NCBI GenBank assembly: GCA_043753565.1
Contig: JAYUWM010000074.1
Location: forward strand, 25,273 to 89,272
Reading direction: 5' to 3'
DNA length: 64,000 nt
From: a bacterium
GTDB taxonomy: Bacteria > Patescibacteriota > Saccharimonadia > Saccharimonadales > SZUA-47
A program made the position numbers and the translations under genes. Below are positions 7,439-21,165 of the stretch, piece after piece (the stretch's first letter is position 1; each line of letters starts with the position of its first letter). The notes beneath the pieces were generated by a model. It did not search any database. It was not told where the DNA came from and saw only the letters and a program-made list of their open reading frames with translations.

Positions 7439-9015
7439 TGGCATATACTAAAAATAACAGAAATACCTCGCTTAGTGCCATAAATAGGTTAGTCCCTATT
7501 AATATAGCTATATCTACCTCAGTCAAAGAATACGGTATTAACATAATAGCTATCAATACTTCTAACACCCTACTAGTAGGGTATGAGTATCGGGTAGGAA
7601 CTAGCTGGGCAACCTCAGTTTTAATAGCTAATACTAATAGTAGCTCACATACTTGGACTGTACAGTCTGCAGGCATATATACTATATGGTGTGCTGCAAT
7701 AGATATATACGGGTACTACTCTGTACCTGCAAACACTGTTGTAGTCATAGCTGCCCCTGGATATAGTTCTATATCGGGTGTAGTTGAAGGGCCTAATATT
7801 AAGTTAGACTGGACAATTTCCGCTAGCGCCTTTGCTATTGATTCTTATGAGATTAGATACGGAGCCGCTTGGGGTACTGCTACATACGTAGGCTCTAGTA
7901 AAGCTACTACATATACTGTCAGAGTAGCCTATTTAGGTCCCTTAACTTGGTGGGTAGCAGCAAAAGACATTGCGGGTAATTTTAGTACCCCTACTGCTGT
8001 GAACATCCCGATTAATAGCCCTAGTAAGGTACTAAATATTATTGCAGATATAATAGATAATAATGTATTATTATATTGGGGGGCACCTGTAGTCGGGTAC
8101 GGGCAAGTACCTATTGACCAATACGAAGTTCGTAAGGGGGCTACCTGGGAAACAGGTACTTTAATAGGTTCAAACGCCAACAGTACTTTTACTAGTATAT
8201 TTGAGCAGGCTGCTGGAGAATACTCGTACTGGATAGCTGCTATTGATACTGCAGGAAACTACGGCGAAGCAGTTAAGTTAAGCGCTAAAGTTAATCAACC
8301 GCCTGACTACGTGCTGAGAAATAATTATAATAGTACTCTACTAGGTACTAAAGTTAATTTTTATCTAGATAATGGTGGATTAGTGGGACCTGTAATTACT
8401 AGTCAATTATGGAGCACACACTTCTCAGGAAATAATTGGAATACTCCAGCAGACCAAGTTACTGCGGGATACCCTATATACGCTACACCGGGAGTAACTT
8501 CTGGTAGCTACGAAGAGATTTTAGATTATGGTACAAATATACTCAGTACTATTGCTACCAGTAACATTACTATAAGCAATATTACTGGTACCGTCACTAA
8601 TGTGTGCACACTGTCATGGAAGCTAAATATTGGGGATCCTTGGACAGTAATGTCCACAGGTAGTAATGTTGTACTTCTACCCGTATTTAGGTACCTACGT
8701 GTACAATACGCATTTAGTTGCACCGGATTAAATAACCTAGTACGAATAAGTAGCTTAAATATCAAGCTGGATATTAAACAGCGCTCCGACTCTGGCAATG
8801 CAGTAGCTGTTGTAGGCGGAACTCAGGTAAATTTTGGGTACCCCTTTATATACGTAGATACCCCCATAGTACAGCCTAGCAGTACAACTACACCTCTTGT
8901 ACCTGTAGTTAATTATGTAGGTACAGTCAACCCCACTAATTTTACTGTACGAATTTTTAACCTATCTGGTGTTGAAGTTGGTGGGGCCTTTTCATGGGCA
9001 GTTAAGGGTTATTAA
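7438..9015 (+). CDS. tail-tip protein with FN3-like repeats (host-specificity J-like region)
   Basis: ATG overlaps the upstream stop (TAATG). Repeated motif YE[IV]R.G..W....(I/V)G......W(V/I)AA.D.AGN(F/Y) occurs about 3 times. Confidence 0.55.
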   Translation: MAYTKNNRNTSLSAINRLVPINIAISTSVKEYGINIIAINTSNTLLVGYEYRVGTSWATSVLIANTNSSSHTWTVQSAGIYTIWCAAIDIYGYYSVPANTVVVIAAPGYSSISGVVEGPNIKLDWTISASAFAIDSYEIRYGAAWGTATYVGSSKATTYTVRVAYLGPLTWWVAAKDIAGNFSTPTAVNIPINSPSKVLNIIADIIDNNVLLYWGAPVVGYGQVPIDQYEVRKGATWETGTLIGSNANSTFTSIFEQAAGEYSYWIAAIDTAGNYGEAVKLSAKVNQPPDYVLRNNYNSTLLGTKVNFYLDNGGLVGPVITSQLWSTHFSGNNWNTPADQVTAGYPIYATPGVTSGSYEEILDYGTNILSTIATSNITISNITGTVTNVCTLSWKLNIGDPWTVMSTGSNVVLLPVFRYLRVQYAFSCTGLNNLVRISSLNIKLDIKQRSDSGNAVAVVGGTQVNFGYPFIYVDTPIVQPSSTTTPLVPVVNYVGTVNPTNFTVRIFNLSGVEVGGAFSWAVKGY

Positions 9016-9098
9016 ATATATCAATTAAATTTAATATAGATAGCTATATTATTGAAATTGCACCAAATCAGGTAGCAGTAGTTAAGGACCAATACTAA

Positions 9099-9677
9099 AT
9101 GATAGAAGTTAACGTAATTAATCCCCTAACAGGTTTAGTATCTACTGTTAGTAGTAACCAGACTGAACAAATTGATGCTGTAGACTTCCAGGGTGCGTAT
9201 CTTGGAAAAGTGGCTAAATCAGCTAATGTAGTACAGGTGCCTTCTCCTCCTTCTACTAGCAACCTTAAGTGGGATTTTCTTACAAATACTTGGGTCAGGA
9301 ATTATAGTATTATAGACGTAGCCTTAATAGCCAAAAACGATATTGATAATATTGCAGGGGCTACTAGGCTAAGATATATTACAGACGTACCAGGCCAACA
9401 GGCTACTTATTTAGTAAAGAAACAACAGGCAGACACGTATTTATTGGATAATAGTATAGTTGGCCCTTATCTAGCTGTAGAAGCAGCTATTATGAATACC
9501 TCAGTTCTTACTACTGCACAGCAGATTGTATCAACCTATCACAGTTGGAATAACTATATAGGACCTAAGATAGAAGGCATCCGCCTTAAAGCTAAAGCAG
9601 ATATACGCTTAGCCACTAGTATACCCTCAATAGATAACATACGAGCAGTAGCTATACTAGAGCTAAGTTTAGTATAA
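9099..9677 (+). CDS. hypothetical tail-module protein
   Basis: 192-aa ORF in the co-directional structural block; no recognisable motif. Confidence 0.5.
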   Translation: MIEVNVINPLTGLVSTVSSNQTEQIDAVDFQGAYLGKVAKSANVVQVPSPPSTSNLKWDFLTNTWVRNYSIIDVALIAKNDIDNIAGATRLRYITDVPGQQATYLVKKQQADTYLLDNSIVGPYLAVEAAIMNTSVLTTAQQIVSTYHSWNNYIGPKIEGIRLKAKADIRLATSIPSIDNIRAVAILELSLV

Positions 9678-9687
9678 GAAAGGTACC

Positions 9688-10830
9688 ATGTCGAATAAAT
9701 TAAGAATAGTATACCAAAATTTAGTAAATAGTACCGCACCTATTAATACATCTAGTACAGCTTCGGCAGCCACCCCAAGTAGTAATTTAACTAAAGACAC
9801 TAAATCTTTAGTATGGAGGTCTGCTACTTCGCCTACTGCAGCAAAAGCTAATCTGGTACTAAGTTTCCCTAGTACTATAGTGGGCGGTGTTATTCTGCCT
9901 TTTTGTAATTTAAGCTCTGAAGCTACTATACGTATTCGCGGATATACGGGTAACACGCCCACATTAGGCAGTACTACTACCGCTAGTATAACAACTACTA
10001 GCGGTAGTAATATAGTTACAGGTAGTTTTCTTAATATTGCGGTAGGTGACGTACTATCTACCAATAGCTATACCCAGGCAGGTACTACAGTTTTAATAGG
10101 TTCTACTACAACTAGCCTTATTTTATCTACAAATGCTTTGGGTACAGTATCTAACTATTCAACGTTATTCACTAGCCCCACTAATTCTATAGTAAATACC
10201 TTAAGCGGCGGACCTAGTAAAAATGATGTCATTACAACCACAGGAACCTTGATATTTGATTCAGGGGCTGTATTAGCCGCACCTTACCAACCATTGGGGT
10301 TATGGAGCTGGGGAAGTCTACCATTAGGAGTTAATAGTTACTCTTATGGTGGAGGCACATATGGACGAGTATGGTTACCTGATAATCAGCAATTAGCATG
10401 TACTAGTATACTAATAGAAATATTAGATGTTACTAATATTTCTGGATATATAGAACTATCTAGGTTAGTAATAGGGGCTTACTGGTCGCCCAAGTTTAAT
10501 ACATCATTTGGACTATCTACAAATACTAAAGACCTTAGTACTCATCAGCGCAGCGAATCAGGAGATCTAGTAACTAATAGAGGTACTAGGCATAATAGTA
10601 TGTCTTTTGATTTAAAATGGCTAACTCCTATAGATCGCCTAGAATTTACTAGAATTCTTAAAGGTAACGGTCTGCCGAAACCTTTATTTATTAGTTTATT
10701 TCCAGATTCTTCAGAAGACTGGTCTAAAGAACAATCCCACCAAATATACGGTAAGTTATCCCAGTTAGTCGGTATAGAACACAGTATATTTGATATATAT
10801 AGCACTAGTATTGAGATAGAAGAGGTTTAG
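9688..10830 (+). CDS. hypothetical tail/baseplate protein
   Basis: 380-aa ORF, Ser/Thr-rich N-terminal half, tightly packed between tail genes. Confidence 0.5.
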   Translation: MSNKLRIVYQNLVNSTAPINTSSTASAATPSSNLTKDTKSLVWRSATSPTAAKANLVLSFPSTIVGGVILPFCNLSSEATIRIRGYTGNTPTLGSTTTASITTTSGSNIVTGSFLNIAVGDVLSTNSYTQAGTTVLIGSTTTSLILSTNALGTVSNYSTLFTSPTNSIVNTLSGGPSKNDVITTTGTLIFDSGAVLAAPYQPLGLWSWGSLPLGVNSYSYGGGTYGRVWLPDNQQLACTSILIEILDVTNISGYIELSRLVIGAYWSPKFNTSFGLSTNTKDLSTHQRSESGDLVTNRGTRHNSMSFDLKWLTPIDRLEFTRILKGNGLPKPLFISLFPDSSEDWSKEQSHQIYGKLSQLVGIEHSIFDIYSTSIEIEEV

Positions 10831-10835
10831 ACATA

Positions 10836-12659
10836 ATGCCACCAAATTTTTACGCAGGTCAAGCAGACTACATTACAGAATTAAATAAGCTAGCTACCGT
10901 TGCAGATATTGGCGGTATTACATCTAACGTCGCTTCTGCTGCTGCAAGTGCTACAGCAGCGGCAGCGTCCAATATTAATGCTGATACTGCAAGAGATGCG
11001 GCAGTGGTGGCACGCATCGCTGCAGAAACGGCTTTGGACAGCTTTGATGATCGGTATCTTGGACCAAAGGCTGCAGCTCCAACACTAGATAATGACGGGG
11101 TCGCACTGCTTGTAGGCGCACTTTACTTTGATACCGTGATCAACGGAGGTTCCATGCGTGCGTGGAACGGTACGAGTTGGGTAGGCTTTACAGCAGCTAC
11201 TAACGCATCCGCTGTGTCCAATACTCCGGCAGGTAATATCGCCGCGACCACAGTACAAACGGCACTTAATGAGCTGGACGTGGAGAAAGCTAATCTTGCT
11301 AGTCCCGCATTCACAGGTACAGTCAGTGGAATAACAAGCACAATGGTAGGCCTTGGAGCAGTTAACAACACTAGTGACTCTGCCAAACCAGTATCTACTG
11401 CTCAGGCAGCAGCGGATACTGCAGTACAATCTGCTGCTGCTACTGATGCCACTACTAAAGCTAATGCTGCACAAGCTGCTTCAGCTCCTGTAGCACACGT
11501 AGGCTCTAGTGGTACTTCACATGCTGTAGTATCTACTACAGTAGCAGGCTTTATGATTGCTGCTGATAAAGTAAAAATTGACGCCATAACTGGTACTAAT
11601 ACGGGCGATCAAACTACTATTACTGGTAATGCAGGTTCAGCTACGGTTCTTCAGACTACTAGGACTATCAATGGTGTAGCGTTTAACGGCTCAGCTAATA
11701 TTACTGTTAATGCTGTGGACGCTACCGCACGTATTGCTAGTTCTCTAATTGGTGCAGTTAGCGGCGTAGCCGCTTTAGATGCTACAGGCAAAGTTCCTGC
11801 AGCACAGCTGCCCTCATATGTAGATGATGTACTGGAATTCGCTAACCTCGCCGGATTTCCAGCTACAGGTGAGATAGGTAAAATATACGTAGCTATAGAT
11901 ACTAATAAGGCCTACCGTTGGTCTGGCACAGTATACGTCTACATTACTTCAGGAGCGGTAGATTCTGTAGCTGGTAAAACTGGCATTGTTACACTAGTCA
12001 AAGCTGATGTAGGTTTAAGTCTTGTTGATAATACGTCTGATGCCTCTAAGCCAGTATCTACTGCTCAAGCAACTGCGGATGCCCTTAAACAAGACCTAAG
12101 TGGTAAAGATGCTACAGGTGGTTATGCAGGCTTAACGCTGTTTAGGCTCAATCTTAAGAACGCGGCCAACACAATCACTAGTTGGTTTACTACTGCAGCT
12201 ACTGCAGCACGTACCTGGACTATGCCAGATAAAGATGGTACAGTAGCGATGACATCAGATATTACTGGTGTCAACTCAGGTACTAATACAGGTGACAATT
12301 CTGTTAATACTCTGTACTCAGGGTTAGTTAGTAACGCTACGCATACAGGCGATGCGACGGGCTCTACTATACTTACTATAGCAGCTGGTGTTGTTACCGA
12401 TGCTAAGCTGTCAGCAGTCAATACCGCAAGCATTAAAGGGCGAATATCTGCAGGAATTGGGGCTCCAGAGAACCTAACAGGAACGCAGACCACAACATTG
12501 CTCGATCCTTTTACTAGCACGCTTAAAGGTCTTGTTCCGGCGTCCGGAGGCGGTACAACTAACTTTTTGAGGGCTGACGGCACTTTCGCAACACCTGCTG
12601 GTGGCGGGGGCGGTGTCGCTACAGGATTCGAGACAAATTTTCTTTTAATGGGAGCGTAA
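10836..12659 (+). CDS. tail fibre protein
   Basis: Two NTSD(S/A).KPVSTAQA.AD fibre repeats, TGTNTGD motifs, TVQTALNELD, and C-terminal FLRADGTFATPAGGGGG. Composition turns GC-rich inside the gene. Confidence 0.75.
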   Translation: MPPNFYAGQADYITELNKLATVADIGGITSNVASAAASATAAAASNINADTARDAAVVARIAAETALDSFDDRYLGPKAAAPTLDNDGVALLVGALYFDTVINGGSMRAWNGTSWVGFTAATNASAVSNTPAGNIAATTVQTALNELDVEKANLASPAFTGTVSGITSTMVGLGAVNNTSDSAKPVSTAQAAADTAVQSAAATDATTKANAAQAASAPVAHVGSSGTSHAVVSTTVAGFMIAADKVKIDAITGTNTGDQTTITGNAGSATVLQTTRTINGVAFNGSANITVNAVDATARIASSLIGAVSGVAALDATGKVPAAQLPSYVDDVLEFANLAGFPATGEIGKIYVAIDTNKAYRWSGTVYVYITSGAVDSVAGKTGIVTLVKADVGLSLVDNTSDASKPVSTAQATADALKQDLSGKDATGGYAGLTLFRLNLKNAANTITSWFTTAATAARTWTMPDKDGTVAMTSDITGVNSGTNTGDNSVNTLYSGLVSNATHTGDATGSTILTIAAGVVTDAKLSAVNTASIKGRISAGIGAPENLTGTQTTTLLDPFTSTLKGLVPASGGGTTNFLRADGTFATPAGGGGGVATGFETNFLLMGA

Positions 12660-12660
12660 C

Positions 12661-12987
12661 ATGCCAAATTTATATAAAGTCCTTGGACAATCAAACCCAG
12701 CAGCGGCCACACTGACTACACTATACACAGTGCCTACAGCAACTTCGGCGGTCTGCTCTACTCTAGCAATCTGTAATCAAGGCGTTTCAACTTTATACCG
12801 AGTCGCAATTCGCCCAGCAGGAGCGCTCATTTCAGCTGCACACTATATTGTTTTCGATGCTGCGGTCGCTTCATTAGATACTGTTTTCCTTACGTTAGGC
12901 ACTACACTTGCAGCAACTGACGTTATTTCGGTACAAGCAGGTACAACAACAGTCAGCTTTAATCTTTCTGGCACGGAGATTACTTAA
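12661..12987 (+). CDS. small fibre-associated protein (hypothetical)
   Basis: 108 aa; starts 1 nt after the fibre stop and overlaps the next gene start (TAATG). Confidence 0.5.
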   Translation: MPNLYKVLGQSNPAAATLTTLYTVPTATSAVCSTLAICNQGVSTLYRVAIRPAGALISAAHYIVFDAAVASLDTVFLTLGTTLAATDVISVQAGTTTVSFNLSGTEIT

Positions 12988-15440
12988 TGAGTAGCCGCAC
13001 AGCGTCACGAAGCGGGCTTGTTGGAAAAAGCCTTTCTGTACCTTTCATCCATCCAAAGGGGGGAACCTCCAGTGCAGCATGGTACCGTGAACCTAGTTGG
13101 TTAGCACTACCTGACGTTACAGGGCTACAAAGACTTGTCGGTGTCGTTGCGATTTGGCCTGATTCGAACTTTCTTGCAGTGACATGCGCTGGGAGTCTTG
13201 GTTACCTGGTTGATTGGGGAGATGGCACGTCTTCCACAGTAGCCACAACAGTTCAAGCCGACAAACAGTACGATTTTAACTCTGTTTCTCTTGCAAATAC
13301 AAACGCACCCTGCACCTTGACAGATATAGGCGATTTGGTTACGCGTACTGCACACGGGTACACCAGCGGACAAACAGCAAAGTTTTTCAACATTTTAACG
13401 ACTACCGGGTTAACAGATAACTACACATACTTTGTTATCAACGCTACAGCAGACACTTTCCAAGTGGCGTTGACTCTAGGAGGTGCCGCGATTGCATTGA
13501 CACTTGATGGAACTGCGACACTGTTACCGTATAAGCAAGCTATAGTAAGTATAACACCTCAAAGCACAGGGACGTTAACATCACTGAATTTGAACGTAAA
13601 ACATGCAGCAATTGGTGGAAGTATTTTACCTGCGTACACAGCTGGCTGGCTGGATATAGCTATTGCTGGAACGAGTTTAGCTACTTTAACTATTGGGGGC
13701 GTTACTGTATATCAAGGGGATCTAGAACAGGTTAAGATAGTTGGTGGTAATAGCATCACGTCCATGGCCACTATGTTCAGTAACTGCTACTCCTTACAGT
13801 CAGTACCACTGTTCAGTACAGCGGGTGTAACGAATATGGTTAGTATGTTCCTTAACTGCTACTCCTTACAGTCTGTACCGCTATTCAATACAGGGGCTGT
13901 AACGAGTATGGCTAGCATGTTCAACGCCTGCTCCTCCTTACAGTCTGTACCACTGTTCAGTACAGCGGGTGTAACGAATATGGCTAGTATGTTCAACGCC
14001 TGCTACTCCTTACAGTCAGTACCGCTATTCAATACAGTGGCTGTAACGAGTATGTCTAGTATATTCAGTAGCTGCCCTTTATTACAGTCAGTACCTCTGT
14101 TTAATACAGCGGCTGTAACGAGTATGTCTAGTATGTTCAGTAGCTGCTCCTCACTACAGTCAGTACCGCTATTCAATACAGCGGGTGTAACGAATATGGT
14201 TAGTATGTTCATTAACTGCTACTCCTTACAGTCTGTACCGCTATTCAATACAGGGGCTGTAACGAGTATGGCTAGCATGTTCAACGCCTGCTCCTCACTA
14301 CAGTCAGTACCATTGTTTAATACAGCGGCTGTAACGAGTATGACTAGTATGTTCGCTAACTGCCCATCCTTACAGTCAGTACCACTGTTTAATACAGCGG
14401 TTGTAACGAATATGTCTAACATGTTCAACGCCTGCTTCTCTTTACAATCAGTACCTCTCTTCAATACAGGGGCTGTAACGACTATGTCTACTATGTTCAG
14501 TGGTGGCTGCTTCTCCTTACAGTCTGTACCACTGTTCAATACAGTAGCAGTTACCGATATGACCAGCATGTTCAGTAACTGCTCCTCCCTACAGTCAGTA
14601 CCGCTGTTCAATACAGCGGCTGTAACGAGTATGTCCACTATGTTCAACTCCTGTCCCTCCTTACAGTCAGTACCACTGTTCAATACAGCGGCTGTAACGA
14701 GTATGACTAACATGTTCAACACCTGTAGGTCTTTACAGTCAGTACCGCTGTTCAATGCAGGATTGATAGGATTTGCAACTGGCATGTTTTCAAACTCCAC
14801 TCAATTAGCTGTAGGCAGGTTGAATAATTTAAAAGTTGCTATCAGCTACGCAGGGTGTAAGTTATCTAAAACCGCCTTGGAAGATATTTTCAATGGGCTT
14901 GGAAAAGCATCAGGTGCACAGACATTTACCATCGGAACAAACTGGGGGGCAGCCCCTGTAGTATCTCTTTCTGGAACTACTACAGAGGGCTCTCTCACTG
15001 TGACAATGGCAAGCACTACAGGAATTGCAGTTGGGATGCAAGTAACTGGGACCAACTCTCCACTGACAAAAGATGGAGCCGTATCACTACAAGACGCGGG
15101 AGACACTGTTACGCGAGCTAGTCACCTACTACTAAATGGTACTGAAGTTTCGTTTGCAACCATTGTTAATACTACTGGTATTGCTACATTTACCCCATAC
15201 TTTGTTATCAACGCCACAGTAAATACTTTCCAAGTGGCACTGACTGCAGGAGGTGCCGCAATTGCGTTGACCCTTGACGGTACGGGTTCAATTCTGTATC
15301 GAACAGTGGTTGAGGCTATCAACCCAAACGTATCTGTAACGCTTTCGCGCCCCGCCACAGCAAGCGGATTGACAACGCTTACCTATCGTCAGTTAACAAC
15401 AGGAACGGCTATTCTTAAAGGCTGGACTGTTTCAGGATAA
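12987..15440 (+). CDS. BspA-like leucine-rich-repeat (DUF285-type) adhesin / receptor-binding protein
   Basis: 14 tandem 24-aa units xCxSLQSVPLFNTxxVTxMxxMFx, flanked by two paralogous ~68-aa domains (aa 113-180 and 703-770). Confidence 0.8.
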   Translation: MSSRTASRSGLVGKSLSVPFIHPKGGTSSAAWYREPSWLALPDVTGLQRLVGVVAIWPDSNFLAVTCAGSLGYLVDWGDGTSSTVATTVQADKQYDFNSVSLANTNAPCTLTDIGDLVTRTAHGYTSGQTAKFFNILTTTGLTDNYTYFVINATADTFQVALTLGGAAIALTLDGTATLLPYKQAIVSITPQSTGTLTSLNLNVKHAAIGGSILPAYTAGWLDIAIAGTSLATLTIGGVTVYQGDLEQVKIVGGNSITSMATMFSNCYSLQSVPLFSTAGVTNMVSMFLNCYSLQSVPLFNTGAVTSMASMFNACSSLQSVPLFSTAGVTNMASMFNACYSLQSVPLFNTVAVTSMSSIFSSCPLLQSVPLFNTAAVTSMSSMFSSCSSLQSVPLFNTAGVTNMVSMFINCYSLQSVPLFNTGAVTSMASMFNACSSLQSVPLFNTAAVTSMTSMFANCPSLQSVPLFNTAVVTNMSNMFNACFSLQSVPLFNTGAVTTMSTMFSGGCFSLQSVPLFNTVAVTDMTSMFSNCSSLQSVPLFNTAAVTSMSTMFNSCPSLQSVPLFNTAAVTSMTNMFNTCRSLQSVPLFNAGLIGFATGMFSNSTQLAVGRLNNLKVAISYAGCKLSKTALEDIFNGLGKASGAQTFTIGTNWGAAPVVSLSGTTTEGSLTVTMASTTGIAVGMQVTGTNSPLTKDGAVSLQDAGDTVTRASHLLLNGTEVSFATIVNTTGIATFTPYFVINATVNTFQVALTAGGAAIALTLDGTGSILYRTVVEAINPNVSVTLSRPATASGLTTLTYRQLTTGTAILKGWTVSG
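13323..13526 (+). repeat. intragenic domain duplication, copy 1
   Basis: Encodes DIGDLVTRTAHGY...YFVINATADTFQVALTLGGAAIALTLDGTATLL. The paralogous copy is at 15093-15296. Confidence 0.8.
13753..14797 (+). repeat. 14 x 72-bp coding tandem repeat (LRR units)
   Basis: Periodic ...tccttacagtcagtaccgctgttcaatacagcggctgtaacgagtatg... Segments 13821-13936 and 14181-14296 differ at one base. Confidence 0.9.
15093..15296 (+). repeat. intragenic domain duplication, copy 2
   Basis: Encodes DAGDTVTRASH...YFVINATVNTFQVALTAGGAAIALTLDGTGSIL. Confidence 0.8.
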
Positions 15441-15445
15441 TCATT

Positions 15446-15622
15446 ATGCCATTTTTCAAAATAGACAATGCTGAAATTGAAGAAACTACCCACATTGACG
15501 GGCCTGGATTCAGTCTTTCGGAGGCCGGAAAGACTGATTACATTTACCCTATAGAAGGGTGGTATTGGTTTGCTTCGGTGACTGATAGTAGAGTCTTCTT
15601 TAACTTGCCCGAACCTGCGTAA
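15446..15622 (+). CDS. small hypothetical protein (58 aa)
   Basis: ATG 15446 lies 6 nt after the LRR gene stop: MPFFKIDNAEIEE...EGWYWFASVTD... Below the ORF-track cutoff. Confidence 0.45.
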   Translation: MPFFKIDNAEIEETTHIDGPGFSLSEAGKTDYIYPIEGWYWFASVTDSRVFFNLPEPA

Positions 15623-15664: not shown

Positions 15665-15693
15665 TTGACCCTAAACTGCGTTTGTGGTATAAT
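15665..15693 (+). promoter_or_regulatory. sigma70-type promoter (TTGACC-17-TGgTATAAT)
   Basis: -35 at 15665-15670, -10 at 15688-15693, with an extended -10 TG. Confidence 0.7.
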
Positions 15694-15784: not shown

Positions 15785-17011
15785 ATGGCATTTGACCCAC
15801 TAAAACCAGCAACAACTGATAACTTCCTAACAGACTTTACACAAGGTATTAAGGCCAACTCAGTAGCATTAGCTCAGTGGCTTGACAGTACGAATGTGAC
15901 CATTACAGGCGCGACTCCTCCTTTTGCCAAGCGATACAATAGAGCTAGTGGCTTTATTGAGGAGTACAGTGGTACGGTGTGGGGTACCCTTACTGTGAAC
16001 ATCCCCGGAAATGCTGCAACTGCTACGAATGCAGTTAATGCTGTTAATGCCACGAATGCAGTTAACTCCACGAATGCAGTTAACTCTACGAATGCCACTA
16101 ATGCTGTCACAGCCACCAACCTAGCCGCAGGTGCAGCAGGCACAATCCCCTGGCAGTCCGCACCCGGCACTACTCTGTTTACTGTGGCAGGTACAGCTGG
16201 TATGGTATTAGTATCAAATGGAGCAGGTGCACCCACTTGGACGTCTGCCCCTACTTTCTCAGCTCCTACGCTTGGAACACCTGTATCTGGCAACCTTGTC
16301 AATTGTTCGATCCCATACTCACAATTGACTGGCACTATTCCAATTTGGAATCAAAGTACCACAGGCACCGCTGCAAGCGCAGACACGGCAGCTGCCTGCA
16401 CAGGCAACGCAGCCACGGCAACTACCTCTAATGGCTCATTCCGGTCCATACAGGTCTTTACAGCTTCTGGAACGTATACCAAGCCTGCCGGGCTGGTGCG
16501 GGCGAAGATTACTGTGGTGGGCGGCGGCGGCGGAGGTTCTGGTGCAAACGGAACCCCCTCTAGCGGCGGAGGAGGCGGAGGTACGGCTATCAGGGTACTT
16601 TCTGCTTCAAGTATTGGGACAACTGAAACTATCACTATTGGTGGCGGAGGAGGAGGAGGCTCCGCTGGATCTCCCGGTGGTGGCGACGCATACTCCCCTA
16701 TTCCGCCTGTCCCGGCTGGCGGCGGAGGCGGCGCTGGCACTTCCTCTATGGGCACACTGGCGTCTGCAACAGGAGGGGGTGCAGGAAACCCCGCTAGCGG
16801 AGGAGCTGGCGGGGGTACAGGCACGTCAGGAAATATAAATCTTGGCGGGGGCGGCGGGGGTCCTACTGGAGGATCCAGTTTTATGGGTGGTGGCGGCCCA
16901 GTAAACGGCGGCCCGGGTAGAGCCTTCGGCGGAGGCGGTGGAGGCTCTCTTGCCTATACCAGTGGCGGAGCCGGCGCAGCCGGCGTAGTATTTATTGAGG
17001 AGTTCTTCTAA
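15785..17011 (+). CDS. glycine-rich fibre-like structural protein
   Basis: N-terminal fibre-like region, (T/S)NAVN(A/S) hexapeptide repeats, then FTASGTYTKPAGLVRAKITVVGGGGGGSG and long poly-Gly blocks. Confidence 0.7.
   Translation: MAFDPLKPATTDNFLTDFTQGIKANSVALAQWLDSTNVTITGATPPFAKRYNRASGFIEEYSGTVWGTLTVNIPGNAATATNAVNAVNATNAVNSTNAVNSTNATNAVTATNLAAGAAGTIPWQSAPGTTLFTVAGTAGMVLVSNGAGAPTWTSAPTFSAPTLGTPVSGNLVNCSIPYSQLTGTIPIWNQSTTGTAASADTAAACTGNAATATTSNGSFRSIQVFTASGTYTKPAGLVRAKITVVGGGGGGSGANGTPSSGGGGGGTAIRVLSASSIGTTETITIGGGGGGGSAGSPGGGDAYSPIPPVPAGGGGGAGTSSMGTLASATGGGAGNPASGGAGGGTGTSGNINLGGGGGGPTGGSSFMGGGGPVNGGPGRAFGGGGGGSLAYTSGGAGAAGVVFIEEFF
16021..16110 (+). repeat. 18-bp coding tandem repeats (NAVNxT hexapeptides)
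   Basis: acgaatgcagttaa(c/t)nc(c/t) iterated about 5 times. Confidence 0.75.
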
Positions 17012-17451
17012 TGAAAAAAGTATTGATTTTTGAAAACAAAATCCACGACATTGTTGAAGTAGGGGCCGAGTTTCCGGTAGCCCGGGAAATGAAGTGGGTT
17101 GATGCGCCAGATACTGTAGACAGCGCCACACACGAATTCAATGGCAAGGCATTCGACCTTAAACTCATTCTAGTGACACCTCCTGTGCAAGCCTTCGTGG
17201 CAACCCTTGCGCCGTTAGACTTTCTTGAGCGATTCACGCTTACAGAGCAGCTTGCCATTACGACTGCAGCAATGCAGTCTCCCATGGTGCGCTTGTGGTA
17301 CGACAAGATGATTGCTGCACGCAGTATCGACGTTGCGGATGCTCGCGTAATTGCCGGTCTGGACGCGCTGATTGCAGCAGGCCTGCTATCAGCTTCACGC
17401 AAATCTGTGCTGTTGATACCCGCGGGCCAAATCCCAGTGGCCCTGCTATGA
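17011..17451 (+). CDS. hypothetical protein (cassette gene 2)
   Basis: 146 aa; TAATG overlap upstream and ATGA overlap downstream. Confidence 0.55.
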   Translation: MKKVLIFENKIHDIVEVGAEFPVAREMKWVDAPDTVDSATHEFNGKAFDLKLILVTPPVQAFVATLAPLDFLERFTLTEQLAITTAAMQSPMVRLWYDKMIAARSIDVADARVIAGLDALIAAGLLSASRKSVLLIPAGQIPVALL

Positions 17452-17837
17452 CGCAACCCGTAATTGCCTTAGGGTGCGTTGCAAACCTATTTTCCCGCAT
17501 GATGCGCTTTACCTACGCAGGGGATACAGAGCAAGGACATACGCACAATTTTGACCACCTTACGCTCCTTGCCAAAGGGAAGCTAAAGGTCACTGTCGAA
17601 GGCATGGCAACGGAGTTCAACGCGCCCCAGATGATTTACATCAAGGCCGACAAGAACCACGAACTTGTCGCCCTTGAGGACGACACACTGGCCTACTGCA
17701 TTCATGCCCTGCGTACAAAAGACGGCTCGGACATTCTTGACCCTGCCATGATTCCTGCGGGTGTTAATCCACTAGGTCTGGCCCAACCTATTTGTACTAT
17801 CACTACTGAAATTAATGTACCCAGCGTTGTTCTCTAA
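17448..17837 (+). CDS. cupin-like small protein (putative)
   Basis: Start trimmed to ATG 17448 (ATGA overlap with upstream stop). G-H-T-H-N-F-D-H plus a beta-rich region resembles a cupin metal site. Confidence 0.5.
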   Translation: MTQPVIALGCVANLFSRMMRFTYAGDTEQGHTHNFDHLTLLAKGKLKVTVEGMATEFNAPQMIYIKADKNHELVALEDDTLAYCIHALRTKDGSDILDPAMIPAGVNPLGLAQPICTITTEINVPSVVL

Positions 17838-17873
17838 CAGCTACGTATACTCATTGGCTCAGAAAGACGTCTT

Positions 17874-18341
17874 ATGAAAATCGTTTTTATTTACGGCAAC
17901 CATCTGAGCGCCCGTCTAACCAAGTTATTCACCGGCTCAACCTGCTACCACATTGGCTTTACTGACGGCATCAAGTTTTGGGACATGCACAAAATACGTC
18001 GTCGCCGCTTGTGGGACGGGCTGTACCCACCTGCTCGCTACCTGCTGGCTGATTGCCCAGTGCCCGTCACGGCTGAGTACCTTGACCACAAACTGGACAC
18101 CGACAACAGCACCTATGGCTACATCGATTATTTGCTGTTCGGCCTGCGCGGGTTTTACCACTTGGTGGGCAAGTCAACACGCAATGCCGGTGGCGTGATC
18201 TGCTCGGAGATGGTAGCCGACGACTTGGCAGCTTGCGGCTGGACAAAGCGGTTCTACGAAGTGCCTTCGCCCGCTGATTTGGAAGTATCTGTGCTGGGGC
18301 GAATAGACTACATGGCTAGAGATGTAGCTACCCGACCCTAA
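17874..18341 (+). CDS. permuted papain-fold (YiiX/LRAT-like) hydrolase, putative
   Basis: 155 aa with His (TCYHIGF) upstream of Cys (GGVICSEMV). Assignment from motif memory only. Confidence 0.35.
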   Translation: MKIVFIYGNHLSARLTKLFTGSTCYHIGFTDGIKFWDMHKIRRRRLWDGLYPPARYLLADCPVPVTAEYLDHKLDTDNSTYGYIDYLLFGLRGFYHLVGKSTRNAGGVICSEMVADDLAACGWTKRFYEVPSPADLEVSVLGRIDYMARDVATRP

Positions 18342-18359
18342 ACTGTTAAAACCGTAAAT

Positions 18360-18395
18360 AAAAATGCCCTGCTTATTTTTAGGCAAGGCATTTTT
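18360..18395 (+). terminator. rho-independent terminator
   Basis: Stem aaaaatgccctgc/gcaaggcattttt with a T-run. Confidence 0.65.
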
Positions 18396-18399
18396 ACTC

Positions 18400-18428
18400 T
18401 TGACCCTAAACTGCGTTTGTGGTATAAT
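18400..18428 (+). promoter_or_regulatory. sigma70-type promoter (TTGACC-17-TATAAT)
   Basis: -35 at 18400-18405, -10 at 18423-18428. Confidence 0.7.
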
Positions 18429-18506
18429 ATAGCAACCCTAGTAATAAGGTATAAATTTTCACAATATATAAGATAGGCTCTATCTTATTTTTATAAGGGC
18501 TTTCTT

Positions 18507-18863
18507 ATGGAAGTTACTAACCTAGCCCAAGTATTAGGCATTTTAATTGCATTTTTAGGTATTATAGCTTTCGGGCTACAAACTATTATGAAAAACTGGA
18601 AAAGTAGCTCTACTGAGTCTTCTCTGTTAACGCTTATGCATGGCGAACTAGAACGTATGTCTAGTCAAAATACTACTTTATCTAATGAAATTGGTAAGCT
18701 ACAAGTTGAACTAATTAAGCTTAGTAACCAGCTGTCTAGACTGAATGTAGAGAATCAAAAACTACAAGAAGAGGTAGCCATGCTAAATAAGGAAATCTCT
18801 AGACTGCACACTATTATGCTACGCCAAACAGTGGAATTTCCAGATGTACTCAAAAAAGATTGA
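18507..18863 (+). CDS. membrane-anchored coiled-coil protein
   Basis: N-terminal TM segment (LGILIAFLGIIAFGL) followed by heptad-rich LQVELIKLSNQLSRLNVENQKLQEEV. Confidence 0.55.
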   Translation: MEVTNLAQVLGILIAFLGIIAFGLQTIMKNWKSSSTESSLLTLMHGELERMSSQNTTLSNEIGKLQVELIKLSNQLSRLNVENQKLQEEVAMLNKEISRLHTIMLRQTVEFPDVLKKD

Positions 18864-19053
18864 GCTTGTATCTAAATATCTAGTATATAAGGGCGAAGCT
18901 TTATTAGGTAGCTCGGAAGATGCGCCCGTATGGAGAATACGCAGAATCTTAATAGATGTTAGTGGAGTAGAAACTACTGAATGTATTTATAATTCCAAAT
19001 GGAAAGATAGGTACTGCTTACCTTACGGAGACATACAATGTCCGCGACTATAA
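18844..19053 (+). CDS. hypothetical protein
   Basis: 69-aa ORF overlapping neighbours by 20 and 16 nt. Confidence 0.4.
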   Translation: MYSKKIELVSKYLVYKGEALLGSSEDAPVWRIRRILIDVSGVETTECIYNSKWKDRYCLPYGDIQCPRL

Positions 19054-19394
19054 ATTTAAAAATATACCAAGGAGCTACGTACTCTAAAAAAGTTATCTGG
19101 CAAGGCGGGACTCCCGTAGCTCCTATTAACCTTACTGGTTGTACAGCTAAAATGCACGTTAGAAGTAAGGCAGGCGACCCTAACCTACTTTTAGCCTTTA
19201 CTACAGAGAACGGCGGTATAGTACTTGGTGGTACAACAGGCTCTATTGAGTACTGTAAGCTTAGCGCTCTAGCGTCTGCTGCAATTACATGGCTTACAGG
19301 TGTGTACGATTTAAAAATTACCTTTCCTGATGGTACGGTTACCCGTAAAATATCAGGCAGTATAATTATATCTCCTGAGGTAACTAATGTCTGA
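19038..19394 (+). CDS. Ig-like tail adaptor protein (BppU-N-like), putative
   Basis: Pattern IYQGATY...W.......L.G......V.........[12 protein letters not shown]..(I)[10 protein letters not shown]. Confidence 0.45.
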
Positions 19395-19905
19395 TGAAGT
19401 ACTATTAGTATCAGAAACTCAATATTTCCTAGTAGATGGTACCACAGAGATATTAGTAAAAGAAGAAGGTACTGTTCAATTAATTGAACTTTATGAACAA
19501 GGCCCTCCCGGTCCTCAAGGTTCACTAGGTCTTACAGGACCTAGTGGACCTATTGGAATACAGGGACCTATAGGCCCCGTAGGCTTCACGGGGGCTATAG
19601 GTCTTACAGGTGCAACAGGCCTTACAGGTGCGCAGGGTCCTATAGGGGTAACTGGAGATACAGGGCCCACAGGACTTACCGGAGCCACAGGTCTTACAGG
19701 AGCTGCAGGTGACCTAAATTATAAGCATGTCCAAGGGCCTGCTTCAGCAGACTGGCTAGTGACGCATAATCTCGGCAAATTTCCTTCAGTTACTATAGTT
19801 GATAGTGCTGGCGAAGAGGTTGAAGGGTCTGTTCAACATATTAATAATAGCAGCCTAAGAATTCTATTTTCTGCTGGATTCACAGGTACTGCGTACCTAA
19901 ACTAA
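19387..19905 (+). CDS. collagen-like repeat fibre protein
   Basis: About 26 uninterrupted G-X-Y triplets ([19 protein letters not shown]...), then a C-terminal domain paralogous to 26986..27303. Confidence 0.75.
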
Positions 19906-19917
19906 TCGGAGTACATT

Positions 19918-21165
19918 ATGAGTCGCAAATTTCTTGCCCACATCAATCTAGCTAAAAACGAGATTCAAAACGCTATTATCCAGAATTTGGCTACAGCTCC
20001 TGCTGCACCGATTCCTGGACAGATTTATTACAATACTACGTCAGGTCGTTTTGAGTACTACAGTGCGGCTGCTTGGGTAGACCCAACCTCTAGAGCTAAT
20101 CATACTGGTACACAGCCTGTAGCCACAATTACAGGTCTTGCAGCTATAGCTACTAGTGGCTCTGCTGCTGATCTAAGCGCGGGAACACTACCAGCAGCTC
20201 GTTTTGATGACGTAGCTCACGGAGCCCGGGCTGGCGGTACTACACACTCTGTTGTATTAGCTGCAGGTGCTGCAGGTTTTATGACTGGAGCAGACAAGAC
20301 TAAGCTAGATGGCGTAGCCGCAGGTGCGACTGCTAACAGCACAGACGCTATCTTGCTCGCACGCGCTAATCATACAGGTACACAACTAGCCGCTACTATT
20401 AGTAACTTCGATACTCAGGTACGTACTAGTAGCATAGCGCAAATGACTGCACCTATAGCTTCTGTAAACGTGGGTGGTCAGTTACTAATCAACGTAGCTA
20501 CCCCCGTTTCGGCTACAGACGCTACTAATAAAGGTTACGTAGATGCACTAGTCAACGGTACTGACTGGAAACTATCTGTACGCGTTGCTTCTACAGCAAA
20601 TAGCTTGCTGTCTGGATTGTTGACACTTGACGGCATTACGGTAGCAGCAGGCGACCGCGTTCTACTAAAAAATCAGACAGTAGGTGCTGAAAACGGTATC
20701 TACGTGGCGTCTTCGGGTGCTTGGACAAGAGCTACAGATGCTGACGTAAGCGCAGAAGTAACGTCTGGCATGGCTATGATGGTCACCGAAGGTACTACGC
20801 AAGGCGACACTCAGTGGGTATTAACTACCAATGACCCTATCGTTATTGGTACTACAGCACTTGTATTTGCCCAAATCGGGGGAAGCACGAGCTACACTGC
20901 AAGTACTGGTATATCTATTACAGGTAACTCGATTGCTATAGATACTGCAGTAGTGGCTCGCAAATTTGCAGCTCTTGTTGGTGCAGGTACATCAGTTGCA
21001 ATTACGCATAACTTAAACACCTTAGACGTAACAGTGCAAGTGTACGAAGTAGCTGACGGGGCAACTGTTGAGTGTGATGTAATACGTAACACAGTAAATC
21101 AAGTTACATTAGGCTTCGCAATAGCTGTTGTTGCCAGCGCATTCCGAGTTGTTGTACAAGGCTAA
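19918..21165 (+). CDS. tail fibre protein
   Basis: Two RANHTGTQ repeats, a GADKTKLDG motif, and N- and C-termini paralogous to 27314..27706. Confidence 0.7.
   Translation: MSRKFLAHINLAKNEIQNAIIQNLATAPAAPIPGQIYYNTTSGRFEYYSAAAWVDPTSRANHTGTQPVATITGLAAIATSGSAADLSAGTLPAARFDDVAHGARAGGTTHSVVLAAGAAGFMTGADKTKLDGVAAGATANSTDAILLARANHTGTQLAATISNFDTQVRTSSIAQMTAPIASVNVGGQLLINVATPVSATDATNKGYVDALVNGTDWKLSVRVASTANSLLSGLLTLDGITVAAGDRVLLKNQTVGAENGIYVASSGAWTRATDADVSAEVTSGMAMMVTEGTTQGDTQWVLTTNDPIVIGTTALVFAQIGGSTSYTASTGISITGNSIAIDTAVVARKFAALVGAGTSVAITHNLNTLDVTVQVYEVADGATVECDVIRNTVNQVTLGFAIAVVASAFRVVVQG

What the first reader, a model, noticed from the sequence alone, without database searches (positions are those of the whole stretch)
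12987..15440. Phage tail protein built from 14 BspA/DUF285-type leucine-rich repeats with signs of recent repeat turnover
The 817-aa protein holds 14 head-to-tail 24-aa units (xCxSLQSVPLFNTxxVTxMxxMFx). To my knowledge this motif is typical of BspA-like LRR surface proteins (DUF285) of bacteria, not of classical fibres. Segments 13821-13936 and 14181-14296 are 116 nt long and differ at a single base, 360 nt (5 units) apart. That implies a very recent segmental duplication or gene conversion inside the array. The array is flanked by two paralogous ~68-aa domains (13323-13526 and 15093-15296). This architecture would permit expansion and contraction of the LRR solenoid by unequal recombination, a possible host-range tuning mechanism.
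Basis: partly seen in the sequence, partly recalled or inferred. Interest (0 to 1): 0.6.

Follow-up and report, generated by a model that had tools for sequence, protein, structure and literature searches.

The report
Phage tail-module leucine-rich-repeat adhesin gene
A T5-like uncultured phage carries, among its tail-fibre genes, a protein built from 14 near-uniform leucine-rich repeats; it belongs to a large, already catalogued but never studied family of phage proteins whose repeat arrays are visibly reshuffled by recombination, so it is a good example of a known kind, not a new one.

Summary
ORF 12987-15440 (817 aa) has 14 tandem 24-aa units. It scores far above threshold for DUF285/PARCEL (PF03382 2e-59, TIGR02167 7e-36). 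The AlphaFold2 model is a confident LRR solenoid (pLDDT 90).

The near-identical tract is really 120 nt (13817-13936 vs 14177-14296, one mismatch) with flanks at about 84%. That fits a short gene-conversion patch, not a 5-unit duplication. A second, older patch links the two paralogous domains D1 and D2.

The gene lies after the tape-measure gene, among fibre genes, in a T5-like siphophage. It is translationally coupled (TAATG) to a 108-aa jelly-roll protein. This pair recurs in every sampled contig that carried the 108-aa gene, in sipho-, podo- and myo-like backgrounds.

Family arrays range from about 6 to 18 or more units, and units are more alike within a genome than between genomes. Some relatives with identical flanks differ by 1-5 whole units. 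One pair has identical DNA apart from a 144-nt indel. Another group of five close relatives does not vary.

Phage DUF285 proteins are common and variable repeat number is a published PARCEL trait. The receptor-binding role and host-range tuning remain inferred. Verdict: new member of a known kind, moderate interest.

The parts
12661..12987 (+). 108-aa partner gene, an eight-stranded jelly-roll protein. Its stop TAA (12985-12987) overlaps the ATG of the LRR gene (TAATG).
   Evidence: sequence. AlphaFold2 pLDDT 88.6 with eight strands. Only weak fold matches: STMV coat, Ena pilin, phage KHP40 cement, lambda gpJ tip. Lies immediately upstream of the DUF285 gene in 17 viral loci at 55-69% identity and in L080-L082 and L161-L165. 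More than 7900 homologues, all about 108 aa. The homologue in Pontimonas phage phiPsal1 is annotated 'putative virion structural protein'.
12987..15440 (+). 817-aa DUF285/PARCEL leucine-rich-repeat protein gene
   Evidence: AlphaFold2 pLDDT 90.4, pTM 0.79.
12987..13076 (+). Residues 1-30, predicted disordered, with no signal peptide or hydrophobic segment
   Evidence: pLDDT below 50. Maximum Kyte-Doolittle hydropathy is 1.39 over 15 residues in the first 75 aa and 1.52 over 19 residues in the whole protein.
13077..13316 (+). N-terminal beta domain (aa 31-110) with family-invariant R34, W38 and G78-D79-G80, and nearly invariant W32 and N35
   Evidence: As part of the 255-aa N-module (aa 1-255) searched: 188 50%-identity clusters at E<=1e-30. 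All 10 homologues sampled also carry DUF285.
13317..13526 (+). D1, a small beta domain of about 70 aa (FCCH-like); paralogue of D2
   Evidence: Hits phrog_7765. Homologues give sub-threshold PF16190 E1_FCCH hits.
13527..13775 (+). Beta domain and N-terminal cap preceding the array (aa 181-263)
   Evidence: secondary structure and pLDDT.
13776..14786 (+). Array of 14 units of 24 aa (FxxCxSLQSVPLFNTxxVTxMxxM); unit 11 has 25 aa
   Evidence: pLDDT 94-98. LRR fold matches.
14787..14861 (+). Degenerate 15th unit or C-terminal cap (aa 601-625)
14862..15086 (+). Helix 628-637 plus beta domain (aa 626-700)
15087..15296 (+). D2, second copy of the ~70-aa beta domain
   Evidence: Hits phrog_9370 'tail fiber protein' and phrog_4711.
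15297..15440 (+). C-terminal beta strands (aa 771-817) and stop codon
13817..13936 (+). Gene-conversion patch, copy 1 (end of unit 1 to start of unit 3)
   Evidence: 119 of 120 nt identical to 14177-14296. Flanks: 7 mismatches in 45 nt and 9 in 58 nt.
14177..14296 (+). Gene-conversion patch, copy 2 (end of unit 6 to start of unit 8), 360 nt downstream
13426..13513 (+). Older conversion patch in D1: it carries the D2-type motif GGAAIALT
   Evidence: 85% nt identity to 15196-15283. D1 vs D2 nt identity is 43.5% in the first half and 78.4% in the second. This half of D1 is closer to L017 D2 (65.7%) than to L017 D1 (52.9%).
15196..15283 (+). Partner of the D1 patch, in D2
15510..15537 (+). Terminator-like hairpin after the gene. 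A strong promoter-like site follows at 15665-15693.
14219..14800 (-). 193-aa antisense open frame across the array. Read as a by-product of the repeat, not a gene.
   Evidence: Such antisense frames are described for PARCEL arrays (PMC2996958).

Best explanation
The gene encodes a virion-associated host-adhesion protein of a T5-like siphophage. It has a disordered N-terminal peptide and a conserved N-terminal beta domain, which probably dock it to the tail tip, perhaps through the co-translated 108-aa jelly-roll partner. Two small FCCH-like beta domains (D1, D2) bracket a DUF285/PARCEL (TpLRR-like) solenoid of about 15 turns, which is the likely binding surface.

In this copy, if the unit is read against the TpLRR consensus (recalled, not tested on coordinates), the residues expected to line the concave strand (LQSVPLF) are the same in all 14 units. 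That would give a uniform polar ladder, which suits a periodic ligand such as a cell-surface polysaccharide.

Shown: the fold class, the gene's position, the coupling to the partner gene, and the evolution of the array by intragenic recombination (short-tract gene conversion, and gain or loss of whole units at stretches of exact homology). Inferred: incorporation into the virion, the ligand, and any effect of repeat number on host range.
For: Family and fold:
- PF03382 scores 198.9 bits against a cut-off of 25.
- TIGR02167 'PARCEL repeat' scores 121 bits against 30.
- A profile of the family hits solved LRR proteins, e.g. 4fs7 at 5e-16.
- The AlphaFold2 model has pLDDT 90.4. Foldseek finds LRR ectodomains and the BspA-like 4h09.
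- Full-length matches exist in uncultured Caudovirales (A0A6J5ND93, E 3e-46, TMq 0.63).

Context:
- Contig order is TerL, portal, protease-capsid fusion, connector, major tail protein, chaperone, 2386-aa tape measure, tip genes, 607-aa fibre, 108-aa gene, this gene, then a terminator-like hairpin.
- The stop and start overlap as TAATG.
- D2 hits a 'tail fiber protein' PHROG.
- There is no signal peptide or TM segment.
- The partner-plus-LRR pair recurs in sipho-, podo- (SU10 adaptor) and myo-like (T4 gp13) contigs.

Array dynamics:
- A 120-nt patch differs at one base while its flanks sit at about 84% identity.
- A D2-to-D1 patch is present.
- Nucleotide identity within an array is 59-78%, against 54-63% between arrays.
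- D1-D2 spacing is quantised by about 24 aa, from 397 to 692 aa, with one protein at 833.
- Seven pairs with at least 96.6% identical flanks differ by 1-5 units.
- P0028 and P0066 have identical DNA apart from a 144-nt indel bounded by 85 nt of exact homology.
Against: - No phage DUF285 protein has been shown to sit in a virion or to bind a receptor; four literature searches found none.
- LRR solenoids are usually monomeric, unlike trimeric fibres, and no oligomerisation or attachment interface was tested.
- GC3 of the gene (0.42) differs from the backbone (0.23-0.30), so it may be a recent import.
- Five close relatives (96-100% identical) show no change in the array.
- Repeat-number differences come from short-read metagenome assemblies, and one relative has an assembly gap inside its array.
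Confidence: 0.6

Rival explanations
1. It is a virion-displayed accessory adhesin. It would not determine host range. It would bind non-host material (particles, exopolymers, other cells) or simply decorate the tail tip, in the way Ig-like or Hoc-type decorations do.
For: The phage carries several other fibre-like genes that could supply the true receptor binder: 10836-12659, 15785-17011, 19387-19905 and 19918-21165. The cassette is portable across unrelated phage backbones. The concave face is uniform and polar.
Against: The N-module and its partner are very abundant and strictly conserved, which argues for a core function. The array turnover resembles that of host-interaction genes. No data separate this reading from the main one.
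Confidence: 0.15
2. It is not a virion component. It would be an intracellular or released late protein (a moron) whose LRR surface binds a host or phage protein, for example to counter defence or to manipulate the cell. DUF285 proteins are also abundant in tailless giant viruses.
For: It is the last gene before a terminator-like hairpin. Its GC3 deviates from the backbone. LRRs classically mediate protein-protein contacts. Many giant-virus DUF285 proteins appear among the matches.
Against: In every locus examined it sits inside fibre or tail clusters and is translationally coupled to a small jelly-roll protein of a type annotated as a virion structural protein. The D domains match tail-fibre PHROGs.
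Confidence: 0.12
3. The signs of 'recent turnover' are assembly artefacts. The 120-nt duplicate patch here, and the whole-unit differences between near-identical relatives, would then come from short-read assemblers mis-threading or collapsing a repetitive array.
For: Exact repeats of 85 nt bound both the patch here and the P0028/P0066 indel; such repeats can mislead de Bruijn assemblers. L162 has a run of N inside its array. All the data are metagenomic.
Against: The 773-aa form occurs on two contigs read, from separate ENA samples (ERZ21966605 and ERZ28593999). The higher identity within arrays than between arrays concerns every unit and cannot come from assembly. An 85-nt repeat is shorter than common read lengths. 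The frame and the 24-aa register are intact throughout.
Confidence: 0.1

Closest known systems
PARCEL / DUF285 repeat proteins (Pfam PF03382, TIGR02167; Roske et al. 2010, PMC2996958)
   Same: Same repeat family by curated profile. Tandem units of about 24-26 residues in variable number, with conserved hydrophobic and variable hydrophilic positions. An antisense open frame crosses the array. Evidence of horizontal spread.
   Different: The described members are mostly bacterial surface lipoproteins or membrane-targeted proteins (Mycoplasma, Listeria). This one has no targeting signal, lies in a phage tail module, and has its own N-module, two FCCH-like domains and a dedicated 108-aa partner. 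The DNA dyad symmetry that gave PARCEL its name is weak here.
[quoted passage not shown] UniProt A0A6J5ND93 and A0A6J5NAQ5 from uncultured Caudovirales; Sphingomonas phage PAU gp103; Aeromonas phages LAh10 and D3; Klebsiella prophage 'tail protein')
   Same: A DUF285 solenoid in a tailed-phage protein. The two uncultured Caudovirales entries match over the full length (E 3e-46 and 9e-39).
   Different: Cultured-phage examples share only the LRR part, at 24-38% identity. None has been studied experimentally. No cultured phage in the collection carries the full architecture.
BspA/TpLRR-type LRR proteins with solved structures (4fs7 Bacteroides ovatus, 4h09 Eubacterium ventriosum; Pfam LRR_5 PF13306)
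   Same: The repeat register MFxxCxSL...LxxVPL parallels the TpLRR pattern AFxxCxxL...LxxIxIP (the TpLRR consensus is recalled from memory, not tested). Best structural superposition is with 4h09 (TMt 0.48). Best sequence-profile hit is 4fs7.
   Different: PF13306 itself does not hit this protein at E<=0.1. The unit is one residue longer. Those proteins are bacterial and of unknown function.
Tail-fibre gene plus small companion gene pairs of tailed phages (fibre plus adaptor or chaperone modules)
   Same: A tightly coupled two-gene unit at the distal end of the tail module that moves between phage backbones.
   Different: The small gene lies upstream rather than downstream. It is a jelly-roll with no match to known fibre chaperones or adaptors. 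The large partner is an LRR solenoid, not a trimeric fibre.

Membership tests
DUF285 / PARCEL (PF03382, TIGR02167) | Curated profile match above the family cut-off | tested here: met
   PF03382 scores 198.9 bits against 25. TIGR02167 scores 121.4 bits against 30.
DUF285 / PARCEL (PF03382, TIGR02167) | Tandem units of about 25 residues in variable number among relatives | tested here: met
   14 units of 24 aa. D1-D2 spacing in the family is quantised by about 24 aa. Near-identical pairs differ by 1-5 units.
DUF285 / PARCEL (PF03382, TIGR02167) | Dyad symmetry (palindromy) of the repeat-coding DNA | tested here: inconclusive
   Only three weak inverted pairs (74-87% complementary, 12-19 nt) in 1.2 kb. 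The MEME-type analysis of the original paper was not run.
DUF285 / PARCEL (PF03382, TIGR02167) | Open reading frame on the opposite strand of the array (many, not all, members) | tested here: met
   193-aa and 69-aa antisense frames at 14219-14800 and 14003-14212.
DUF285 / PARCEL (PF03382, TIGR02167) | Membrane-targeting signal or lipoprotein box (many bacterial members) | tested here: not met
   No hydrophobic N-terminal segment; residues 1-30 are predicted disordered. This feature is not obligatory for the family.
Leucine-rich-repeat solenoid fold | Predicted structure superposes on solved LRR proteins | tested here: met
   pLDDT is 94-98 over the array. Foldseek probability is 1.00 to LGR4/5, SHOC2, TLRs and 4h09. 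This is a prediction, not an experiment.
BspA / TpLRR type (Pfam LRR_5 PF13306) | Match to PF13306 | tested here: not met
   No PF13306 hit at E<=0.1 for this protein. Some homologues do hit it. 'BspA-like' is therefore a loose label here.
Phage tail fibre / receptor-binding protein | Encoded in the tail module distal to the tape-measure gene, among fibre genes | tested here: met
Phage tail fibre / receptor-binding protein | Present in the virion and attached to the tail tip | not testable with these tools
   No proteomic or structural data. The only indirect support is the 'putative virion structural protein' annotation of a homologue of the partner.
Phage tail fibre / receptor-binding protein | Binds a host surface receptor and affects host range | not testable with these tools
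   The host is unknown and no isolate is available.
E1_FCCH (PF16190), for domains D1 and D2 | Profile match above the curated cut-off | tested here: not met
   No hit for D1 or D2 of this protein. Homologues score about 25 bits against a cut-off of 29.5. This is a resemblance only.

The most novel reading that the evidence does not exclude
The 108-aa jelly-roll protein plus the N-module-DUF285 solenoid would form a portable two-gene receptor-recognition cassette shared by sipho-, podo- and myoviruses of aquatic bacteria. That would make it one of the most abundant unstudied receptor-binding designs. Its reach or avidity would be adjusted on short time scales by gain and loss of whole LRR turns, through recombination at the long exact homologies that gene conversion keeps creating.
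Probability: 0.3. Interest if true: 0.6.

Novelty: new member of a known kind. Interest (0 to 1): 0.36.

Why it matters
Solenoid LRR proteins are the standard recognition scaffold of eukaryotic immunity and of bacterial adhesins, but no phage receptor-binding protein of this type has been characterised. This family is large. The N-module alone gives 188 clusters at 50% identity with E<=1e-30, and the partner has more than 7900 homologues. It travels as a two-gene cassette between phage morphotypes. If it is a receptor binder, it would explain part of the unannotated tail genes in environmental phages. It would also offer a naturally length-adjustable binding scaffold. As it stands, the finding documents ordinary tandem-repeat dynamics in a catalogued family.

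Tried and rejected
- Megablast of the gene and of 20 kb around it against 50,697 phage records found no match.
- A 5-unit segmental duplication is rejected. Only 120 of 360 nt are near-identical, and the flanks are at the array's background identity.
- The N-terminal 255 aa as a generic anchor carrying interchangeable heads is rejected. All 10 sampled homologues with a single D-domain match, the most likely to carry another head, also carry DUF285.
- A secreted or lipoprotein surface protein of a lysogen is rejected. There is no signal peptide or hydrophobic segment.
- Identity of the 108-aa partner: no Pfam or NCBIfam hit and no PDB sequence hit. Only weak jelly-roll fold matches appear, the best at E 9.5e-4.
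- PARCEL palindromy is weak.
- Literature searches for an experimentally studied LRR or DUF285 phage receptor-binding protein found none.
- The taxonomy of the 869-kb bin was not pursued. Co-binning of a 103-kb phage contig is weak host evidence.
Full report
**Observation**

The window holds an 817-codon ORF at 12987-15440 on the + strand. Tandem Repeats Finder reports a 72-nt period, 13.8 copies and 80% matches at 13764-14760. An independent repeat search finds 12 overlapping 300-nt copies spaced 72 nt apart.

Parsed by hand, there are 14 units of 24 residues (FxxCxSLQSVPLFNTxxVTxMxxM) at aa 264-600. Unit 11 carries one extra residue. Unit 14 is half degenerate, and a degenerate 15th unit or cap follows. 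In units 1-13, fourteen of the 24 positions are invariant.

Extended, the tract is 120 nt (13817-13936 vs 14177-14296) with a single mismatch at 13851. Its longest exact run is 85 nt. The next best at any other lag is 37 nt, and the maximum in 2000 simulations at 80% identity was 66 nt.

The paralogous domains are real. Residues 111-180 and 701-770 share 57% identity (E 4e-24). They are separated from the array by about 80 and about 100 residues of other beta structure.

**What the protein is**

- Pfam DUF285 (PF03382) matches at 2.2e-59, 198.9 bits against a cut-off of 25.
- NCBIfam TIGR02167, now named 'PARCEL repeat-containing surface protein', matches at 7e-36.
- PF13306 (LRR_5, the BspA type proper) does not match this protein.
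- A profile of 40 full-length relatives hits solved LRR proteins, led by 4fs7 at 5e-16.
- An AlphaFold2 model built on that alignment is confident: pLDDT 90.4, pTM 0.79, and 94-98 over the array. Only residues 1-30 are disordered.
- Foldseek places the model among LRR ectodomains and the BspA-like 4h09.
- In the viral library it matches two full-length proteins of uncultured Caudovirales, called 'Bacterial surface protein 26-residue repeat' (E 3e-46 and 9e-39). Many phage and giant-virus 'BspA family' entries follow.
- There is no signal peptide or hydrophobic segment.

**Context**

The window is bases 25273-89272 of a 103-kb contig (C74) in an 869-kb bin. Upstream lie the large terminase, portal, a protease-capsid fusion, a connector protein, the major tail protein, a tail assembly chaperone and a 2386-aa tape-measure-sized ORF that ends at window 5766. 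The terminase is 48% identical to those of 112-118-kb Vibrio phages. That fits the 'T5-like' label given by earlier agents.

After the tip genes come three tightly packed genes: a 607-aa fibre-like protein, a 108-aa protein and the LRR gene. The 108-aa gene's stop overlaps the LRR gene's start as TAATG. A terminator-like hairpin at 15510-15537 and a strong promoter-like site at 15665-15693 follow. More fibre-like genes lie downstream. GC3 of the LRR gene is 0.42, against 0.23-0.30 for the backbone.

**A conserved two-gene cassette**

In 17 viral contigs that carry a relative of the LRR protein, the only neighbour conserved with the window is the 108-aa gene. It lies immediately upstream at 55-69% identity.

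The same pair, with overlapping stop and start, occurs in several backgrounds:
- a contig with SU10-type adaptor genes, i.e. podovirus-like (L080);
- contigs with a T4 gp13-like gene, i.e. myovirus-like (L081 and L082);
- L161-L165. In L162 the downstream gene is broken by an assembly gap, and in L161 it is cut by the contig end.

The partner folds as an eight-stranded jelly-roll (pLDDT 88.6) with only weak structural neighbours. It has more than 7900 homologues of the same length. Its one homologue in a named phage, Pontimonas phage phiPsal1, is annotated 'putative virion structural protein' after a Pelagibacter phage protein, and there it is not followed by a DUF285 gene.

The N-terminal 255 residues of the LRR protein define 188 clusters at 50% identity with E<=1e-30. 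All ten sampled members that matched in a single stretch (no second D-type stretch) also carry DUF285. The N-module is therefore dedicated to this family and is not a general anchor.

**Repeat dynamics**

The 120-nt patch has flanks at about 84% identity (7 mismatches in 45 nt and 9 in 58 nt), which is the array's background. A 5-unit duplication would have left 360 nt alike. The pattern is that of a short gene-conversion tract.

A second, older patch joins D1 and D2. Their first halves are 43.5% identical in DNA and their second halves 78.4%. D1's second half carries the D2-type motif GGAAIALT, and it is closer to a relative's D2 (65.7%) than to that relative's D1 (52.9%).

Across twelve arrays, mean nucleotide identity is 59-78% within an array and 54-63% between this array and the eleven others. 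The window's array is the most homogeneous at 78%. This is concerted evolution.

Among 69 relatives with both D domains, the D1-D2 spacing runs from 397 to 692 aa, with one at 833, in steps of about 24 aa. That corresponds to 8 fewer to 4 more units than here, with one outlier of about 10 more.

Seven pairs of relatives with at least 96.6% identical flanks differ by one to five units. For P0028 and P0066 the DNA is identical over 2322 nt apart from a 144-nt (two-unit) indel bounded by 85 nt of exact homology. The short form occurs on two contigs read, from separate ENA samples.

Against this, five contigs that are 96-100% identical to one another all have 13 units and an identical array. Their differences lie only in nt 1-840 of the gene.

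Repeat number therefore changes, but not everywhere and not at contingency-locus rates.

**Mechanism**

I read the protein as a tail-tip adhesin. The evidence is positional and comparative. It sits in the fibre cluster, is coupled to a small structural-type protein, has D domains that match tail-fibre PHROGs, and lacks export signals.

Aligning the unit with the TpLRR pattern (recalled from memory) puts LQSVPLF on the concave strand. In this copy the residues predicted to be exposed there (Q, S, P) are the same in all 14 units. Relatives vary at the same two positions (TT, QT, KS, ET and others), often with one dominant pair. A uniform polar ladder would suit a periodic ligand such as a polysaccharide. 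This is inference. No coordinates were available to me and no ligand is known.

**Comparison and novelty**

The repeat family was described as PARCEL. Variable repeat number, horizontal spread, dyad symmetry and antisense frames were all noted in that paper (PMC2996958). The dyad symmetry is weak here.

DUF285 proteins are listed in many phage genomes: 45 records by tblastn, several annotated 'tail protein', 'putative tail protein' or 'BspA family', and vB_VhaM_pir03 ORFs 200 and 287 (PMC7765460). Notes of this scan list 70 similar findings in at least 58 genomes; these are unchecked leads.

Four literature searches found no experimental study of such a phage protein.

The specific architecture, its obligate N-module and the 108-aa partner appear undescribed, but they are variations within a known kind. 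Verdict: a real feature, a new member of a known kind, of moderate interest.

Noticed in passing
window 12661-12987: The 108-aa jelly-roll protein belongs to a very large family of uniform length: 7961 of 8000 scored candidates pass E<=0.001. It has no Pfam or NCBIfam model. It is found next to tail-fibre genes, and in Pontimonas phage phiPsal1 it occurs without a DUF285 neighbour.
   Followed up: partly
L006, L017, L007, L008, L009 (gene nt 1-840): Five near-identical relatives of the LRR gene differ only in the first 840 nt (N-domain and D1 region). The array and C-terminus are 100% identical. This is a mosaic pattern that suggests recombination in the N-terminal third.
   Followed up: partly
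L028:5636-7900 and 7857-10160: A 145-kb viral contig carries two DUF285 paralogues in tandem (754 and 767 aa) after one copy of the small partner gene.
   Followed up: no
L162:about 5370-5480: There is a run of N inside the repeat array of a relative. This shows that these arrays break short-read assemblies.
   Followed up: no
window 15785-18341: The four genes after the terminator have much higher GC3 (0.43-0.65) than the phage backbone (0.23-0.30). This fits a foreign cassette, as an earlier first-reader note suggested.
   Followed up: partly
G000:C74:13803-14399, 14534-14962, 18245-19063 (upstream of the window): Three small ORFs sit between terminase, portal and capsid genes. Two have GIY-YIG-like motifs (GIYKLTF...YIGKS and GIYLG...YIGQS) and one has an HNH-like motif. 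They are probably free-standing homing endonucleases. This was read from sequence only.
   Followed up: no
G000:C74:16166-18091: One 641-aa ORF matches both a head maturation protease (N-terminal 160 aa) and a major head protein (the rest), i.e. a protease-capsid fusion.
   Followed up: no
window 14219-14800 and 14003-14212 (- strand): Long antisense open frames run across the array and encode their own 24-aa repeat (LNSGTDCKE...). They are a by-product of the repeat, as reported for PARCEL arrays.
   Followed up: partly
L163:1893-4541: An 882-aa relative has an array whose units all carry SLQTVPLFNTAAVT and which contains internally duplicated two-unit blocks. It is an even more homogenised array than the one in the window.
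   Followed up: no
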